Shown here piece after piece: positions 61,718-64,000 of a stretch of 64,000 nucleotides of DNA. The stretch comes from Methyloceanibacter sp. Lineage in GTDB: Bacteria > Pseudomonadota > Alphaproteobacteria > Rhizobiales > Methyloligellaceae. A program made the translations under genes and the position numbers. The stretch's first letter is position 1. Each line of letters starts with the position of its first letter. The stretch covers positions 56,601-120,600 of the forward strand of contig NZ_JBOHJB010000001.1 of assembly GCF_050728395.1 (NCBI RefSeq), read 5' to 3'. The notes beneath the pieces were generated by a model. That model was not told the origin of the DNA, made no database searches, and worked only from the letters and a program-made list of their open reading frames with translations.

Positions 61718-61942
61718 TCAGGAGCCACGCCGCTTTGGCGGCCTGTTCTCGTTGGCCGGCTCGCTGCGCGTGCTTTGCTTGAGGGCCTCCTTCAACGTCC
61801 GCGGCCGGTGGTGCTTGGCCAACAAATCGGCGAACGCCTCATCGGCAAGTTCCTGCAGATCCTTGCCTCTGTCGCGGGACAAGAGCTCGAGCGCCTGCCA
61901 GGTCTCAGGGTCGAAGCCGATCAGCTTGCGCCTGGGCGCCAT
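61718..61942 (-). CDS. Small ribbon-helix-helix-like DNA-binding protein
   Basis: beta-alpha-alpha pattern RKLIGFDPETWQALELL...LQELADEAFADLLAK. Confidence 0.6.
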   Translation of the reverse strand: MAPRRKLIGFDPETWQALELLSRDRGKDLQELADEAFADLLAKHHRPRTLKEALKQSTRSEPANENRPPKRRGS

Positions 61943-61989: not shown

Positions 61990-63015
61990 TCAAGCCTTGA
62001 GGCGCGACAGGATGCCTTCAAGGATGCGGATCGCATCCCCCTTGTCGCGCTTTTGCAGATTGAGGTGGAATTTGAACCCCTCCAGTTCCTCGCGGATCAC
62101 GGTTCCCTCCTCGGCGAGGTGGTCGTAAAGGCCGAGCACCTTGTAGCAGCGGATCGGCTCAGCGAAGCCCTTCACCTTGATCGGCGTCTGCTCTTCCGCG
62201 GCCACTTCATCCTTCACCAGCGAATAGGTCTCGTGACCCAGAAGAACGCCGTCGATCTCGGCATGGGATTGCAGCCGCGCGGTCAGGTTCACGGCATTGC
62301 CGATAATGGTATAGTCCATGCGGTCGTTGCTGCCGAAATTGCCGACGGTGCAATAGCCCGTGTTGATGCCGATGCGCACTCGAAATGGCTTCTCGGCTCC
62401 CAATTCCTGCCATTCCGAGCGCAGCTCGCGCATTCGCCCCAGCATGGCAATAGCCATGCGCACGCAGGCGCGGGCATCCTCCTTCAACCCTCTCGATTCG
62501 GGGTCGCCGAAGAACACCATGATCGCGTCGCCAATATATTTGTCGATGGTGGCGCCATGTTTGAGCGCGATATCCGACATCTCGGTAAGGTACCTGTTGA
62601 GCAGATTGGTGAGATCCTCGGACTCAAGCTTGTCGGTGGTCTCGGTGAAATTGACCACGTCGGAGAAGAAGATGGTCAGCTTCTTGCGGCTGGAAGCTAT
62701 CTCGACGCCTTGCGCGCCGGTGAAGATCGAGTTGTAGATCTGCGGCGAGAGATATTTCGACAGCTTGGTAGAGAGCGACTCAAGCTCCTTGTTCTTTTGG
62801 GCGATGACTTCGGCCGCGGCGTTCAATTGCCGCTCGTTGTGATCGCCAAGGCGCATCAGCCTGCGCGCGGTACGGAACAGCTTCTGGTAGCTCTTGAGCA
62901 GCTGCTCGAAGTTTTTCTGCTCGTCCGGGCTGTCGAAGACTCCATCGGCAAGCAAGCGCTCAGCCGCCGCGATCACTCCCTCTTCAGCGACAAAGAGATC
63001 ATCGCTTGACATCAC
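61990..63015 (-). CDS. Class III adenylate cyclase with SiaD-like N-terminal helical/coiled-coil region
   Basis: FFSDVVNFT, DKYIGDAIM, RIGINTG, MDYTIIGNAVNLTARL; N-terminal LLKSYQKLFRTARRLMRLGDHNERQL. Confidence 0.88.
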   Translation of the reverse strand: MMSSDDLFVAEEGVIAAAERLLADGVFDSPDEQKNFEQLLKSYQKLFRTARRLMRLGDHNERQLNAAAEVIAQKNKELESLSTKLSKYLSPQIYNSIFTGAQGVEIASSRKKLTIFFSDVVNFTETTDKLESEDLTNLLNRYLTEMSDIALKHGATIDKYIGDAIMVFFGDPESRGLKEDARACVRMAIAMLGRMRELRSEWQELGAEKPFRVRIGINTGYCTVGNFGSNDRMDYTIIGNAVNLTARLQSHAEIDGVLLGHETYSLVKDEVAAEEQTPIKVKGFAEPIRCYKVLGLYDHLAEEGTVIREELEGFKFHLNLQKRDKGDAIRILEGILSRLKA

Positions 63016-63401
63016 TCAGCCATCTTCTCGAGATGAAATTTAGCGTTGACCAGATCCTCGCCGAATTCCTCGCCGAGCTCCTGCATGGTGTCGTCTTCCC
63101 GGTCGTAATACCAGAAAACCTCGATCAAGGCCCCATTTGCCGCCGCGGCATCGAGCTTATCCATCAACATCATGACGGCCTTGGCGCTGCTCGAATTGAG
63201 GTAGATGAGCTCAATGTCGAAGCGGCAACTGCCCTTGCCGAGCTTTCCCAGATAGGTATCGAGGGCCTCGAAGATTGGTTTGTAAAACTCGGTCACGTCC
63301 TCTGGGTAAGACTCTCCCGTGAGCTTCAAGTGATTTTCGGCGAAGTCGAATGTCACCGCTGGAGTGCGGGCGGTGGCGGGGATTTCGAATTTCCACATCA
63401 T
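63012..63401 (-). CDS. siaC: SiaC family (DUF1987) protein
   Basis: IPATARTP, GESYPED, YLNSSSAK, WYYD, ELGEEF. Confidence 0.88.
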   Translation of the reverse strand: MMWKFEIPATARTPAVTFDFAENHLKLTGESYPEDVTEFYKPIFEALDTYLGKLGKGSCRFDIELIYLNSSSAKAVMMLMDKLDAAAANGALIEVFWYYDREDDTMQELGEEFGEDLVNAKFHLEKMAE

Positions 63402-63411
63402 TCCACAGTCC

Positions 63412-63972
63412 TCATACCCTGGCCTTGAGGGTGAAGAATGCGTGGCCGTCGTCGACATCGGTAAAGTCGAACTCGATCGGTTTCGATGCGCGGCGCGCGA
63501 TTTCCATGATGCCGAGGCCGGCGCCCTTGCTGCCCTCCTCCGGCGCGGCTCGCAGCTGCTCCTTATGCACGGCGCGAAGCTCCTCCTTATTCATATCCCT
63601 GATCTTGATCAAGCGCGTGCGTAGCCGCTCAACATCCTTCTGCGCCACGAGATTACCCGCCTGGACGACGTACTCGCCGCCCTCCTGACCGATGGTCACA
63701 ATCCCGTACCGGATCTCCAGCAGCGGGCTGTCGCCTGCCGACGACTGGGCGGCCAGTTCGGCGGAATAGCGGATGATGTTCTGCATCTGCTCGACGAACA
63801 CCGCGAACACGCTGCGCAGCGTCTTGGTGTCGGCGTCGTCGATGGTCAGCTTCTGCTTGATGGCCTCGCCGACGCCGCTCAGCACCGTTTCCGTCATGTA
63901 GCCGCTAAATGCAAAGATAATGCCTTGCCTTTTCAGCGTAGCGCGGAGGTCGAAGAGGTCGCGTCCGTCCAT
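63412..63972 (-). CDS. siaB: SiaB family protein kinase
   Basis: FAFSG, VFVEQMQNIIRYS, AGNL, SKGAGLGIMEIARRAS.PIEF.F (GHKL-like). Confidence 0.85.
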   Translation of the reverse strand: MDGRDLFDLRATLKRQGIIFAFSGYMTETVLSGVGEAIKQKLTIDDADTKTLRSVFAVFVEQMQNIIRYSAELAAQSSAGDSPLLEIRYGIVTIGQEGGEYVVQAGNLVAQKDVERLRTRLIKIRDMNKEELRAVHKEQLRAAPEEGSKGAGLGIMEIARRASKPIEFDFTDVDDGHAFFTLKARV

Positions 63973-64000
63973 GTCGTTGCGTCCCCTAACGTCCGAGCGG

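What the first reader, a model, noticed from the sequence alone, without database searches (positions are those of the whole stretch)
61990..63972. SiaB-SiaC partner-switch wired to an adenylate cyclase instead of diguanylate cyclase SiaD
Seen: siaB, siaC and a cyclase are contiguous (siaC and the cyclase overlap by 4 bp). The cyclase has a SiaD-like N-terminal helix but a class III cyclase domain with the ATP-specifying Lys (DKYIGD) and Asp (MDYT) and catalytic N...R. The SiaC phosphosite motif is YLNSSS; Pseudomonas has YLNTSS. Established: P. aeruginosa SiaABCD controls c-di-GMP and aggregation. Inference: the same switch outputs cAMP here, next to a large surface-glycan locus.
Basis: partly seen in the sequence, partly recalled or inferred. 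Interest (0 to 1): 0.66.

Follow-up and report, generated by a model that had tools for sequence, protein, structure and literature searches.

The report
SiaABC phospho-switch wired to adenylate cyclase
A four-gene operon joins the SiaA/SiaB/SiaC protein phospho-switch, known only for controlling a c-di-GMP enzyme in Pseudomonas, to a cAMP-making enzyme that carries the same SiaC docking helix, so this switch most likely turns cAMP synthesis on and off in many marine and soil bacteria.

Summary
On the minus strand lie siaB (63412-63972), siaC (63012-63401) and a 340-aa class III cyclase (61990-63012). A SiaA-type phosphatase (four PAS domains plus PP2C, 837 aa) starts just beyond the window end.

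The cyclase catalytic domain is 56% identical to P. aeruginosa CyaB and keeps all six catalytic residues.

- **Docking module.** Residues 14-79 match a profile built only from the N-termini of SiaC-adjacent diguanylate cyclases, HD-GYP proteins and histidine kinases (E 1e-13). It is the only hit among 29,852 ORFs of this genome.
- **Complex model.** It puts SiaC Ser70 (the Pseudomonas Thr68 position) between the two stalk helices: score 0.82, best control 0.00. This may be memory of PDB 7E6G.
- **Conservation.** The four-gene cassette is kept in 12 of 12 genus relatives while its flanks change. 73 of the 80 nearest SiaC genes have a cyclase downstream.
- **Glycan locus.** The link is not conserved.

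About 11% of SiaC modules in a Pseudomonadota sample use this output. No paper in the held library describes it. This scan noted the same wiring before on other DNA (e1-2455548). It is a new variant of a known kind, and no experiment has tested it.

The parts
63986..64000 (-). 3' end of siaA. The full gene continues beyond the window to extended coordinate 66499 (L003:2587-5100, minus strand). It encodes 837 aa: three tandem PAS_3 domains, one PAS_7 and a PP2C/SpoIIE phosphatase. No transmembrane segment was noticed by eye in the translation (no prediction run).
   Evidence: Pfam PAS_3 6.7e-64, PAS_7 2.5e-23, SpoIIE 9.8e-22. NF038263 SiaA C-terminal part 4.4e-73. PDB 6k4e (P. aeruginosa SiaA PP2C) E 4.5e-62. 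Translation. The stop lies 13 nt before the siaB start.
63412..63972 (-). siaB, a SiaB-family protein kinase of 186 aa.
   Evidence: NF038262 at 2.2e-58, 196.7 bits (cut-off 85). PF19788 at 1.3e-43. PDB 6kko_A E 5.2e-27.
63012..63401 (-). siaC, a DUF1987/SiaC phosphoprotein of 129 aa counted from ATG 63401.
   Evidence: PF09345 at 4e-39. PDB 6k4f/6kko SiaC at 6e-21. The start is supported by orthologue alignment A2 and by the junction sequence.
63192..63194 (-). Codon of SiaC Ser70, the position of the phosphorylated Thr68 of P. aeruginosa SiaC (motif N-S-S-S).
   Evidence: Alignment to the PDB SiaC chains. Codon checked. In the complex model it touches stalk residues 53-60 of both cyclase copies.
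61990..63015 (-). SiaC-docked class IIIb adenylate cyclase. It is 341 aa from GTG 63015, more likely 340 aa from ATG 63012.
   Evidence: PF00211 at 3.5e-28. PDB 3r5g CyaB E 3.8e-70. Foldseek against 3r5g gives 56% identity, TM 0.93, rmsd 1.2. AF2 model mean pLDDT 79.
62779..62976 (-). N-terminal SiaC-docking module (residues 14-79 in 341-aa numbering). It consists of a short helix bearing the DDLF..EE motif plus a long stalk helix.
   Evidence: A profile from 21 non-cyclase docking segments hits only this ORF among 29,852 ORFs of the genome, E 1e-13. AF2 helices at 3-23 and 29-85.
62842..62865 (-). Core docking motif RRLMRLGD. It aligns with K77-V78-A79-R80-I81-S82-D83 of the P. aeruginosa SiaD stalk. 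Gly replaces Ser82 here; most relatives have RRLMRLSD.
   Evidence: Interface residues 52-62 in the complex model. SiaD contact residues are taken from PMC8457831.
62716..62763 (-). Cyclase-transducer element (LSKYLSPQIYNSIFTG) between the stalk and the catalytic domain.
   Evidence: Nearly invariant in alignments A1 and A3. AF2 helix at 90-98. The name and role of the element come from established knowledge of class III cyclases.
62137..62691 (-). Catalytic domain. In 340-aa numbering it carries the metal Asp residues D118 and D162, substrate residues K158 and T235, and transition-state residues N242 and R246.
   Evidence: All six are invariant in 27 SiaC-linked cyclases and were checked in the sequence. 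They align with CyaB and CyaC.
61993..62127 (-). C-terminal extension of about 45 aa after the catalytic domain (a beta-hairpin plus a helix). It is conserved in the SiaC-linked cyclases. Its function is unknown.
   Evidence: AF2 elements E305-318 and H324-339. Alignment A3.

Best explanation
This is a self-contained four-gene signalling cassette: siaA-siaB-siaC-cyclase.

**Proposed mechanism (inferred).** The cytoplasmic PAS-PP2C phosphatase SiaA and the kinase SiaB set the phosphorylation state of SiaC at Ser70. Unphosphorylated SiaC docks on the N-terminal module of the cyclase, which is a short DDLF helix plus the RRLMRLGD stalk motif. One SiaC binds per chain, with Ser70 wedged between the two parallel stalk helices. 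This stabilises the coiled-coil dimer. Through the cyclase-transducer element, that aligns the two class IIIb catalytic domains so that they make cAMP. Phosphorylation of Ser70 by SiaB expels SiaC and switches the cyclase off.

**Shown by computation.**
- The identity of all four proteins.
- Intact adenylate-cyclase catalytic residues.
- Homology of the N-terminus to the SiaC-binding stalk of SiaD-type proteins.
- Conservation of the cassette as a unit.

**Inferred only.**
- Physical binding.
- Its dependence on phosphorylation.
- The sign of regulation (activation).
- The 2:2 stoichiometry.
- The product, cAMP.
For: 1. **Component identity.** SiaB, SiaC and the SiaA PP2C domain match the solved P. 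aeruginosa proteins at E 5e-27, 6e-21 and 4.5e-62. They also match the NCBIfam/Pfam models.
2. **Operon structure.** The gaps are 13 nt and 10 nt, followed by a start/stop overlap.
3. **Cyclase.** The catalytic domain is 56% identical to CyaB of P. aeruginosa, TM 0.93. D118, K158, D162, T235, N242 and R246 are invariant in 27 homologues. Replacement of the substrate Asp by Thr defines class IIIb adenylate cyclases (PMC2613629).
4. **Docking module, own genome.** A profile made only from SiaC-adjacent GGDEF, GAF-HD-GYP and histidine-kinase proteins hits one ORF of 29,852 in this genome: this cyclase, residues 14-79, E 1e-13.
5. **Docking module, other loci.** The same profile hits the following, at independent E < 1e-3 scaled to a genome-size database:
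   - 8 of 8 SiaC-linked cyclases;
   - 16 of 16 HD-GYP proteins;
   - 3 of 3 histidine kinases;
   - 18 of 21 GGDEF proteins;
   - 0 of 27 other neighbours.

   The GGDEF hits include three orthologues of P. aeruginosa SiaD, matched over the published SiaC-binding stalk.
6. **Internal control.** A paralogous CyaB-like cyclase in the same genome (L002) lacks the module.
7. **Complex model** (2 stalks + 2 SiaC).
   - ipSAE 0.82 (runs 0.82, 0.83, 0.82); best of 3 controls 0.00.
   - In the tool's calibration this mark was reached by 58 of 80 solved complexes and 2 of 110 mismatched pairs.
   - Partner pLDDT is 91 and at least 82% of contacts are shared between runs.
   - The interface covers cyclase residues 6-8, 10, 45, 48-49, 52-62 and 65, and SiaC residues 67-71, 73-78, 81, 105-116.
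   - Ser70 touches residues 53-60 of both stalks. This is the geometry described for Thr68 in PDB 7E6G (PMC8457831).
8. **Conservation.** The cassette is kept in 12 of 12 genus relatives while all flanks differ. Of the 80 nearest SiaC genes, 73 have a cyclase directly downstream, 79 have SiaB upstream and 78 have a PP2C nearby.
9. **Linker length.** Differences between the docking motif and the transducer element are multiples of 7 residues (-7, 0, +7). This fits a continuous coiled coil that must keep its register.
Against: - There are no experimental data of any kind for this locus or for any SiaC-linked cyclase.
- The complex model may score high from memory of the solved SiaC-SiaD complex, 7E6G. 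It shows likeness, not binding.
- A pairwise search of the whole cyclase against the PDB did not retrieve SiaD. The link needs a profile, and the profile's seeds were picked with a motif pattern written after seeing this cyclase.
- In this genome the residue aligned with SiaD Ser82, which hydrogen-bonds Thr68 in Pseudomonas, is Gly.
- The cyclase has one docking motif where SiaD has two.
- SiaB, SiaC and SiaA all score below the NCBIfam equivalog cut-offs. On the SiaC tree this SiaC lies far from the Pseudomonas clade.
- The sign of regulation cannot be read from sequence.
- Class IIIb enzymes can also respond to CO2/bicarbonate, so SiaC need not be the only or the main input.
Confidence: 0.72

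Rival explanations
1. SiaC does dock on the cyclase, but the sign is inverted. Either binding of unphosphorylated SiaC holds the cyclase inactive, or it is phospho-SiaC that binds. SiaB activity would then raise cAMP.
For: The docking evidence is the same as for the best explanation. Sequence does not fix the sign. The same docking module sits on enzymes with opposite effects on c-di-GMP: GGDEF makers and HD-GYP breakers.
Against: In the one studied system, unphosphorylated SiaC activates and phosphorylation abolishes binding (PMC8457831). In the model, Ser70 is buried between the stalks next to Asp57/58, where a phosphate would clash.
Confidence: 0.12
2. The cyclase only neighbours the switch. 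SiaC acts on another target, and the cyclase is governed by something else, for example CO2/bicarbonate as in other class IIIb enzymes.
For: Class IIIb cyclases examined so far respond to inorganic carbon (PMC2613629). The genome holds 10 class III cyclase domains, so cyclase genes are common.
Against: This is the only ORF in the genome with the docking module. It is the only SiaC gene in the genome. The adjacency holds in 73 of 80 related loci and across changing flanks. The paralogous cyclase without a SiaC neighbour lacks the module.
Confidence: 0.05
3. The cassette is a dedicated regulator of the adjacent surface-glycan and sulfotransferase locus. In this reading, cAMP made here controls those genes.
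For: In this genome the cassette lies between glycan-synthesis genes on both sides.
- Upstream: a GT4 glycosyltransferase and three sulfotransferases.
- Downstream: ManC, RmlC-like, RmlB-like and GalE-like genes.
- The nearest relative (L108) keeps the GT4 and one sulfotransferase.
- In Pseudomonas the Sia system controls aggregation (PMC8457831).
Against: In 11 of 12 genus relatives none of the glycan genes is near the cassette, and the flanks differ from genome to genome. No cNMP-binding regulator is encoded on this contig near the locus.
Confidence: 0.1
4. The cyclase domain makes a nucleotide other than cAMP (for example cGMP), or it is catalytically dead.
For: Pfam PF00211 covers both adenylate and guanylate cyclases. 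A cyanobacterial guanylate cyclase (2w01) is among the structural matches at 34% identity.
Against: The Lys/Thr pair and all metal and transition-state residues are intact and invariant. The closest solved relative, at 56% identity, is the adenylate cyclase CyaB.
Confidence: 0.03

Closest known systems
SiaABCD partner-switch system of Pseudomonas aeruginosa (PA0172-PA0169; PDB 6K4E, 6KKO, 6K4F, 7E6G; PMC8457831)
   Same: - A PP2C phosphatase, a SiaB kinase and a DUF1987 phosphoprotein in one operon, followed by the regulated enzyme.
- The regulated enzyme has an N-terminal helical stalk with an R-(I/L)-(S/G)-D docking motif.
- The phosphosite residue is modelled between the two stalk helices.
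   Different: - The output is a class IIIb adenylate cyclase, not a GGDEF diguanylate cyclase.
- There is one docking motif per chain instead of two, so the predicted stoichiometry is 2:2 rather than 2:4.
- The phosphosite is Ser, not Thr.
- SiaA is cytoplasmic with four PAS domains, whereas P. aeruginosa SiaA has a membrane/HAMP sensor (from my own knowledge, not tested here).
- All three Sia proteins fall below the NCBIfam equivalog cut-offs, and SiaC sits in a different branch of the family tree.
CyaB adenylate cyclase of Pseudomonas aeruginosa (PDB 3R5G), class IIIb
   Same: The catalytic domain is 56% identical (TM 0.93) and has the same Lys/Thr substrate pair and the same metal and transition-state residues.
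   Different: P. aeruginosa CyaB has an N-terminal MASE2 membrane domain (from my own knowledge). Here that part is replaced by the soluble SiaC-docking helix pair, and the gene lies in a Sia operon.
Other partner-switch systems that control diguanylate cyclases: HsbR-HsbA-HsbD (P. aeruginosa) and BgrSTUWV-BgrR (Sinorhizobium meliloti), as cited in PMC8457831
   Same: A Ser/Thr phospho-switch protein that binds and modulates a second-messenger cyclase.
   Different: Those systems use STAS-domain switch proteins and GGDEF outputs. None is reported to control an adenylate cyclase.
Coiled-coil and transducer-element-regulated class III cyclases (for example the phytochrome-linked cyclase 6FHT and the photoactivated cyclases)
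   Same: A parallel coiled coil followed by the cyclase-transducer element passes a signal to a dimeric catalytic domain. 6fht aligns from residue 84 on.
   Different: In those enzymes the sensor is fused in the same chain. Here the input would be a separate protein that clamps the coiled coil.

Membership tests
SiaABCD-type partner switch | PP2C phosphatase (SiaA) encoded with the module | tested here: met
   An 837-aa 4xPAS-PP2C protein lies directly upstream. PDB 6k4e E 4.5e-62. NF038263 scores 246.9 bits, below the equivalog cut-off of 700 because the sensor part differs.
SiaABCD-type partner switch | SiaB-family kinase | tested here: met
   NF038262 subfamily model 196.7 bits (cut-off 85). 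The equivalog NF038264 scores 130.3, below its cut-off of 225. PDB 6kko_A E 5e-27.
SiaABCD-type partner switch | DUF1987/SiaC protein with a hydroxyl residue at the Thr68 position | tested here: met
   PF09345 scores 133.4 bits. The site reads N-S-S-S, with Ser70 aligned to Thr68. Ser is the commonest state in the family. The equivalog NF038265 scores 99.9, below its cut-off of 150.
SiaABCD-type partner switch | Output enzyme is a GGDEF diguanylate cyclase (SiaD) | tested here: not met
   The downstream gene has PF00211 and no GGDEF domain.
SiaABCD-type partner switch | Output enzyme carries the SiaC-binding stalk motif | tested here: met
   The docking profile scores E 1e-13 and is the unique hit in the genome. 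The same profile matches SiaD orthologues over the published stalk. The complex model scores 0.82 against controls at 0.00.
SiaABCD-type partner switch | SiaC binds and activates the output only when unphosphorylated | not testable with these tools
   This needs biochemistry. The model only places Ser70 in the interface.
Class III adenylate cyclase, subclass IIIb | Class III catalytic domain with two metal-binding Asp, a transition-state Asn and a transition-state Arg | tested here: met
   PF00211. D118, D162, N242 and R246 are present and invariant.
Class III adenylate cyclase, subclass IIIb | Substrate pair Lys + Thr (Thr in place of the class IIIa Asp) | tested here: met
   K158 and T235 are present and align with CyaB and CyaC. 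The definition of the subclass is from PMC2613629. The equivalence of the column to mammalian D1018 rests on the spacing of 7 residues before the Asn, which I take from my own knowledge.
Class III adenylate cyclase, subclass IIIb | Makes cAMP; responds to CO2/bicarbonate | not testable with these tools
   An enzyme assay is needed.
CyaB of P. aeruginosa (orthologue) | N-terminal MASE2 membrane sensor | tested here: not met
   No Pfam domain is found before residue 109. The model shows two soluble helices there.

The most novel reading that the evidence does not exclude
SiaB/SiaC is a general plug-in phospho-switch. A portable N-terminal docking module of about 70 residues, which no Pfam or NCBIfam model matched in the proteins scanned here, recruits SiaC to at least five output classes: diguanylate cyclases, HD-GYP phosphodiesterases, histidine kinases, PP2C phosphatases and class III adenylate cyclases. 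In this clade that would give the first partner-switch-controlled adenylate cyclase. Because the enzyme is class IIIb, it could act as an AND gate between a PAS-sensed signal and inorganic carbon.
Probability: 0.55. Interest if true: 0.72.

Novelty: new variant of a known kind. Interest (0 to 1): 0.6.

Why it matters
- **A new kind of control over cAMP.** Bacterial cAMP synthesis is known to be controlled by fused sensor domains, small molecules and PTS proteins. Control by a Ser/Thr partner switch through a separate docking protein has not been described in the papers searched.
- **A wider role for the Sia system.** If confirmed, SiaABC would stop being a Pseudomonas biofilm curiosity. It would be a modular controller that links one phospho-switch to cAMP, c-di-GMP synthesis, c-di-GMP breakdown or two-component signalling, depending on which enzyme carries the docking helix.
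- **A portable handle.** The docking module is short and transferable. It could serve as a handle for predicting regulation and for engineering.
- **Testable in culture.** The cassette occurs in cultured bacteria: Methyloceanibacter marginalis and M. superfactus, Ruegeria atlantica, R. arenilitoris and R. profundi, Tritonibacter multivorans, Hongsoonwoonella zoysiae and Granulosicoccus. Direct tests are therefore feasible.

Tried and rejected
- **Pairwise search for SiaD.** A phmmer search of the whole cyclase against the PDB found only cyclases, not SiaD. The N-terminal likeness needed a profile.
- **Motif pattern.** My first regular expression for the docking motif was too strict. It missed Pseudomonas SiaD and several cyclases, so I replaced it with an HMM.
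- **Single-linkage clustering.** Clustering the downstream proteins merged cyclases, GGDEF proteins and kinases. This looked like an artefact but turned out to reflect the shared N-terminus.
- **Glycan-locus link.** I tested it by synteny and rejected it as a conserved association.
- **Promoter/terminator scan.** The count was not clearly above shuffled expectation and was uninformative.
- **Failed call.** One Pfam call failed because a reference contained stop codons and was repeated without it.
- **Asp of MDYT as the specificity residue.** I considered and rejected this. By spacing to the catalytic Asn and by alignment to CyaB/CyaC, the Thr occupies that column.
- **Single origin of the cyclase output.** I considered this on the SiaC tree. 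The tree needs at least 7 changes of that label, so a single origin is not supported. The tree has few columns, and related sequences are not independent.
Full report
**What is in the sequence**

Three co-directional ORFs lie on the minus strand at the window's end.
- 63412-63972 is a SiaB-family kinase. NF038262 scores 196.7 bits against a cut-off of 85, and it matches DUF6272. It aligns over its whole length with P. aeruginosa SiaB, PDB 6kko_A, at E 5e-27.
- The next ORF is a SiaC/DUF1987 protein. PF09345 scores 133 bits, and it matches PDB 6k4f/6kko SiaC at E 6e-21. Its likely start is ATG 63401, 10 nt after the siaB stop and 7 nt after a GAGGA. That gives 129 aa, as in its orthologues.
- 61990-63015 is a class III cyclase (PF00211, 98.9 bits).

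The orthologues, however, begin one codon later, at the ATG that overlaps the siaC stop by one base (TGATG). That start gives 340 aa.

**Beyond the window**

The window is G000:C1:56601-120600. I fetched the continuation of the contig (L003).
- An 837-aa gene ends 13 nt upstream of siaB. It encodes three tandem PAS_3 domains, a PAS_7 domain and a PP2C/SpoIIE domain.
- The PP2C part matches P. aeruginosa SiaA, PDB 6k4e, at E 4.5e-62. It also matches the C-terminal part of NF038263.
- I noticed no membrane segment in the translation.

**The cyclase**
- The catalytic domain (residues 107-294) matches P. aeruginosa CyaB, PDB 3r5g, at E 3.8e-70 without gaps.
- An AlphaFold2 model (mean pLDDT 79) superposes on 3r5g with TM 0.93, rmsd 1.2 A and 56% identity.
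- In 340-aa numbering, D118 and D162 (metal), K158 and T235 (substrate), and N242 and R246 (transition state) are all present. They are invariant in 27 homologues.
- The substrate position is the Thr of MDYT, 7 residues before the Asn.
- Replacement of the substrate Asp by Thr defines class IIIb adenylate cyclases, which so far all respond to inorganic carbon (PMC2613629).

The enzyme is thus a CyaB-type adenylate cyclase whose N-terminal 100 residues are something else.

**The N-terminus is the SiaC-docking module**

I surveyed SiaC genes to see what lies downstream of them.
- I searched PF09345 in 401 genomes of the phylum. It was found in 57 genomes, as 75 genes. I fetched every locus.
- The gene downstream of SiaC falls into these classes:

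| Downstream gene | Loci (of 75) |
|---|---|
| GGDEF protein | 21 |
| N-terminal helix + GAF + HD-GYP protein | 16 |
| Class III cyclase | 8 |
| Histidine kinase | 3 |
| Other gene orders or unrelated genes | the rest |

- Unexpectedly, BLAST joined the cyclases, GGDEF proteins and kinases through their first 80-100 residues, with E down to 1e-11.

I then built an HMM of a 70-residue segment from 21 of the non-cyclase proteins.
- It hits one ORF out of 29,852 in this genome: the window's cyclase, residues 14-79, at E 1e-13.
- Scaled to the same database size, it hits 8/8 cyclases, 16/16 HD-GYP proteins, 3/3 kinases, 18/21 GGDEF proteins and 0/27 other neighbours.
- The GGDEF hits include three orthologues of P. 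aeruginosa SiaD (L064 against 7e6g_A, E 3e-128). They are matched over residues 41-99. That stretch holds K77, V78, R80, I81, S82, D83, R84, Y85 and Q86, the residues published as contacting SiaC (PMC8457831).
- The window's core motif RRLMRLGD aligns with KVARISD of SiaD. Most relatives read RRLMRLSD.
- A paralogous CyaB-like cyclase elsewhere in the genome (L002) sits next to a Ras-like GTPase and lacks the module. It serves as an internal control.
- Caveat: the seeds were chosen with a motif pattern written after I had seen this cyclase. Only 8 of the 70 profile positions are affected by that choice.

**Predicted complex**

I folded two copies of the cyclase N-terminus (1-112) with two copies of SiaC, each supplied as an alignment of 13 orthologues.
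- The score was ipSAE 0.82 (three runs: 0.82, 0.83, 0.82), and the best of three controls was 0.00.
- In the tool's calibration, that mark was reached by 58 of 80 solved complexes and 2 of 110 mismatched pairs.
- Partner pLDDT was 91, and the runs shared at least 82% of their contacts.
- The interface comprises cyclase residues 6-8, 10, 45, 48-49, 52-62 and 65 (341-aa numbering). On SiaC it comprises 32-41, 67-71, 73-78, 81 and 105-116.
- Ser70, the equivalent of Thr68, touches residues 53-60 of both stalk copies. This is the arrangement described for Thr68 in 7E6G.

A like complex has been solved, so this pass may be from memory. It shows likeness, not binding.

The monomer model has helices at 3-23 and 29-85, a transducer helix at 90-98, the catalytic domain, and a small C-terminal hairpin plus helix.

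The linker between the docking motif and the transducer element varies only in steps of 7 residues. This fits a continuous coiled coil that must keep its register.

**Conservation and spread**
- Within the genus, SiaC is present in 18 of 36 genomes searched. It was not found in 24 genomes of the family's other genera.
- Every complete genus copy I checked has SiaB upstream and the cyclase downstream.
- In 12 of 12 genus loci with long flanks, the four genes are conserved at 67-86% identity. The flanks are unrelated except among near-identical genomes. The cassette therefore moves as a unit.
- Only the nearest relative (L108) keeps the GT4 and sulfotransferase genes.
- Of the 80 nearest SiaC genes in one-genome-per-species contigs, 73 have a class III cyclase directly downstream, nearly all with a docking-profile hit.
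- 79 of the 80 have SiaB upstream. 78 have a PP2C nearby: 63 co-directional and the rest divergent.
- Carriers include the cultured species below, plus many MAGs:
  - Methyloceanibacter marginalis and M. superfactus;
  - Hongsoonwoonella zoysiae;
  - Ruegeria atlantica, R. arenilitoris and R. profundi;
  - Tritonibacter multivorans;
  - Granulosicoccus.
- On a SiaC tree the outputs are clustered: 25 label changes against 42 in shuffles. The cyclase label still needs at least 7 changes. This SiaC groups with HD-GYP-linked SiaCs, far from the Pseudomonas clade. The tree has few columns, and related sequences are not independent.

**Global view of the module**
- A profile of 24 docking segments found 741 representatives at E <= 0.001 among 1.84 billion cluster representatives, and 125 at E <= 1e-10. 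In nearly all, the match lies at the N-terminus.
- Of the 82 best hits that are at least 230 aa long:

| Domain found | Members (of 82) |
|---|---|
| HATPase_c (25 also have HisKA) | 30 |
| GGDEF | 29 |
| Class III cyclase domain | 10 |
| SpoIIE/PP2C domain | 6 |
| GAF / HD-GYP | a few |

- No Pfam family was reported for the docking segment itself.
- Cyclases thus make up about one in nine docking-module proteins, both here and in the phylum sample.

**Phosphosite**

N-S-[ST]-[ST], with Ser at the Thr68 position, is the commonest form across the sampled SiaC family. L-N-T-S-S occurs only in some GGDEF-linked SiaC genes, including the Pseudomonas-type clade. The Ser here is ordinary.

**Downstream of cAMP**

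The genome encodes 10 class III cyclase domains and 15 cNMP-binding domains over the cut-off. None of the latter lies near this locus. cAMP receptors exist, but the target of this particular cyclase is unknown.

**Literature and earlier notes**
- Full-text searches found no paper that links SiaC/DUF1987 to an adenylate cyclase.
- The structural paper only suggests that DUF1987 proteins modulate adjacent proteins.
- This scan noted the same wiring earlier on other DNA (e1-2455548). It also noted the docking site on kinases (e1-1357894) and on HD-GYP proteins (e1-2453237). I reached the same reading from my own survey before seeing those notes, and I tested it independently here.

**Verdict**

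The locus is a new variant of a known kind of system.

Noticed in passing
L003:3756-4888 (minus-strand gene siaA; extended window coordinates about 65155-66287, beyond the window end): The three PAS_3 domains of SiaA form a tandem DNA array of 2.9 copies with a 387-nt period (129 aa) and 78% matches. This suggests fairly recent internal duplication of the sensor domain.
   Followed up: partly
L002:1086-2420 (-) and L002:2424-2927 (-), contig C9 of the same genome: A paralogous CyaB-like cyclase (444 aa) has a catalytic region 69% identical in DNA to this one. It lies directly downstream of a Ras/Roc-family small GTPase and lacks the SiaC docking module. This may be a GTPase-coupled cyclase.
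   Followed up: partly
window 61718-61942 (-): A 74-aa ribbon-helix-helix, antitoxin-like gene (PF20605) lies 47 nt downstream of the cyclase on the same strand. Homologues at 55-65% identity lie near the cassette in about 20 relatives. Where I compared orientations (L134, L102) they run convergent to the cyclase, and they are absent from the four closest relatives' flanks.
   Followed up: partly
L085:737-2470 (-): A SiaC-adjacent class III cyclase of 577 aa also carries a C-terminal PilZ domain. One protein could therefore combine SiaC docking, cAMP synthesis and c-di-GMP sensing.
   Followed up: no
L080:402-2507 (-), L059:3095-5233 (+) and 14 similar loci: The second most common gene after SiaC in the Pseudomonadota sample (16 of 75) is a protein of about 690 aa with the docking helix, a GAF domain and an HD-GYP (HD_5) domain. 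That is a likely c-di-GMP phosphodiesterase under the same switch.
   Followed up: partly
P0123-P0272, tally: The docking module also heads 6 SpoIIE/PP2C phosphatases and many hybrid histidine kinases with receiver and Hpt domains. Four members carry an HATPase_c_2 (anti-sigma-like kinase) domain.
   Followed up: no
L061 / L172 (Stappia sediminis NZ_WUMV01000003.1, about 494.5 kb): Here the ORF after siaC is only 84 aa, yet it matches the docking N-terminus of the cyclase at E 4e-30. It may be a truncated or frameshifted cyclase, or a stand-alone docking peptide.
   Followed up: no
L050 (G162:C52) and L097 (G325:C30): In these loci the SiaC domain lies inside much longer open frames (ORFs of 629 and 426 aa). 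These are possible fusions of the switch domain to other domains.
   Followed up: no
whole genome G000: For a 3.26-Mb genome the cAMP toolkit is large: 10 class III cyclase domains and 15 cNMP-binding domains over the Pfam cut-offs.
   Followed up: partly
window 61993-62127 (-): A 45-residue extension after the catalytic domain is modelled as a beta-hairpin plus a helix. It is shared by the SiaC-linked cyclases, and in similar form by the paralogue on C9. No function has been assigned.
   Followed up: no
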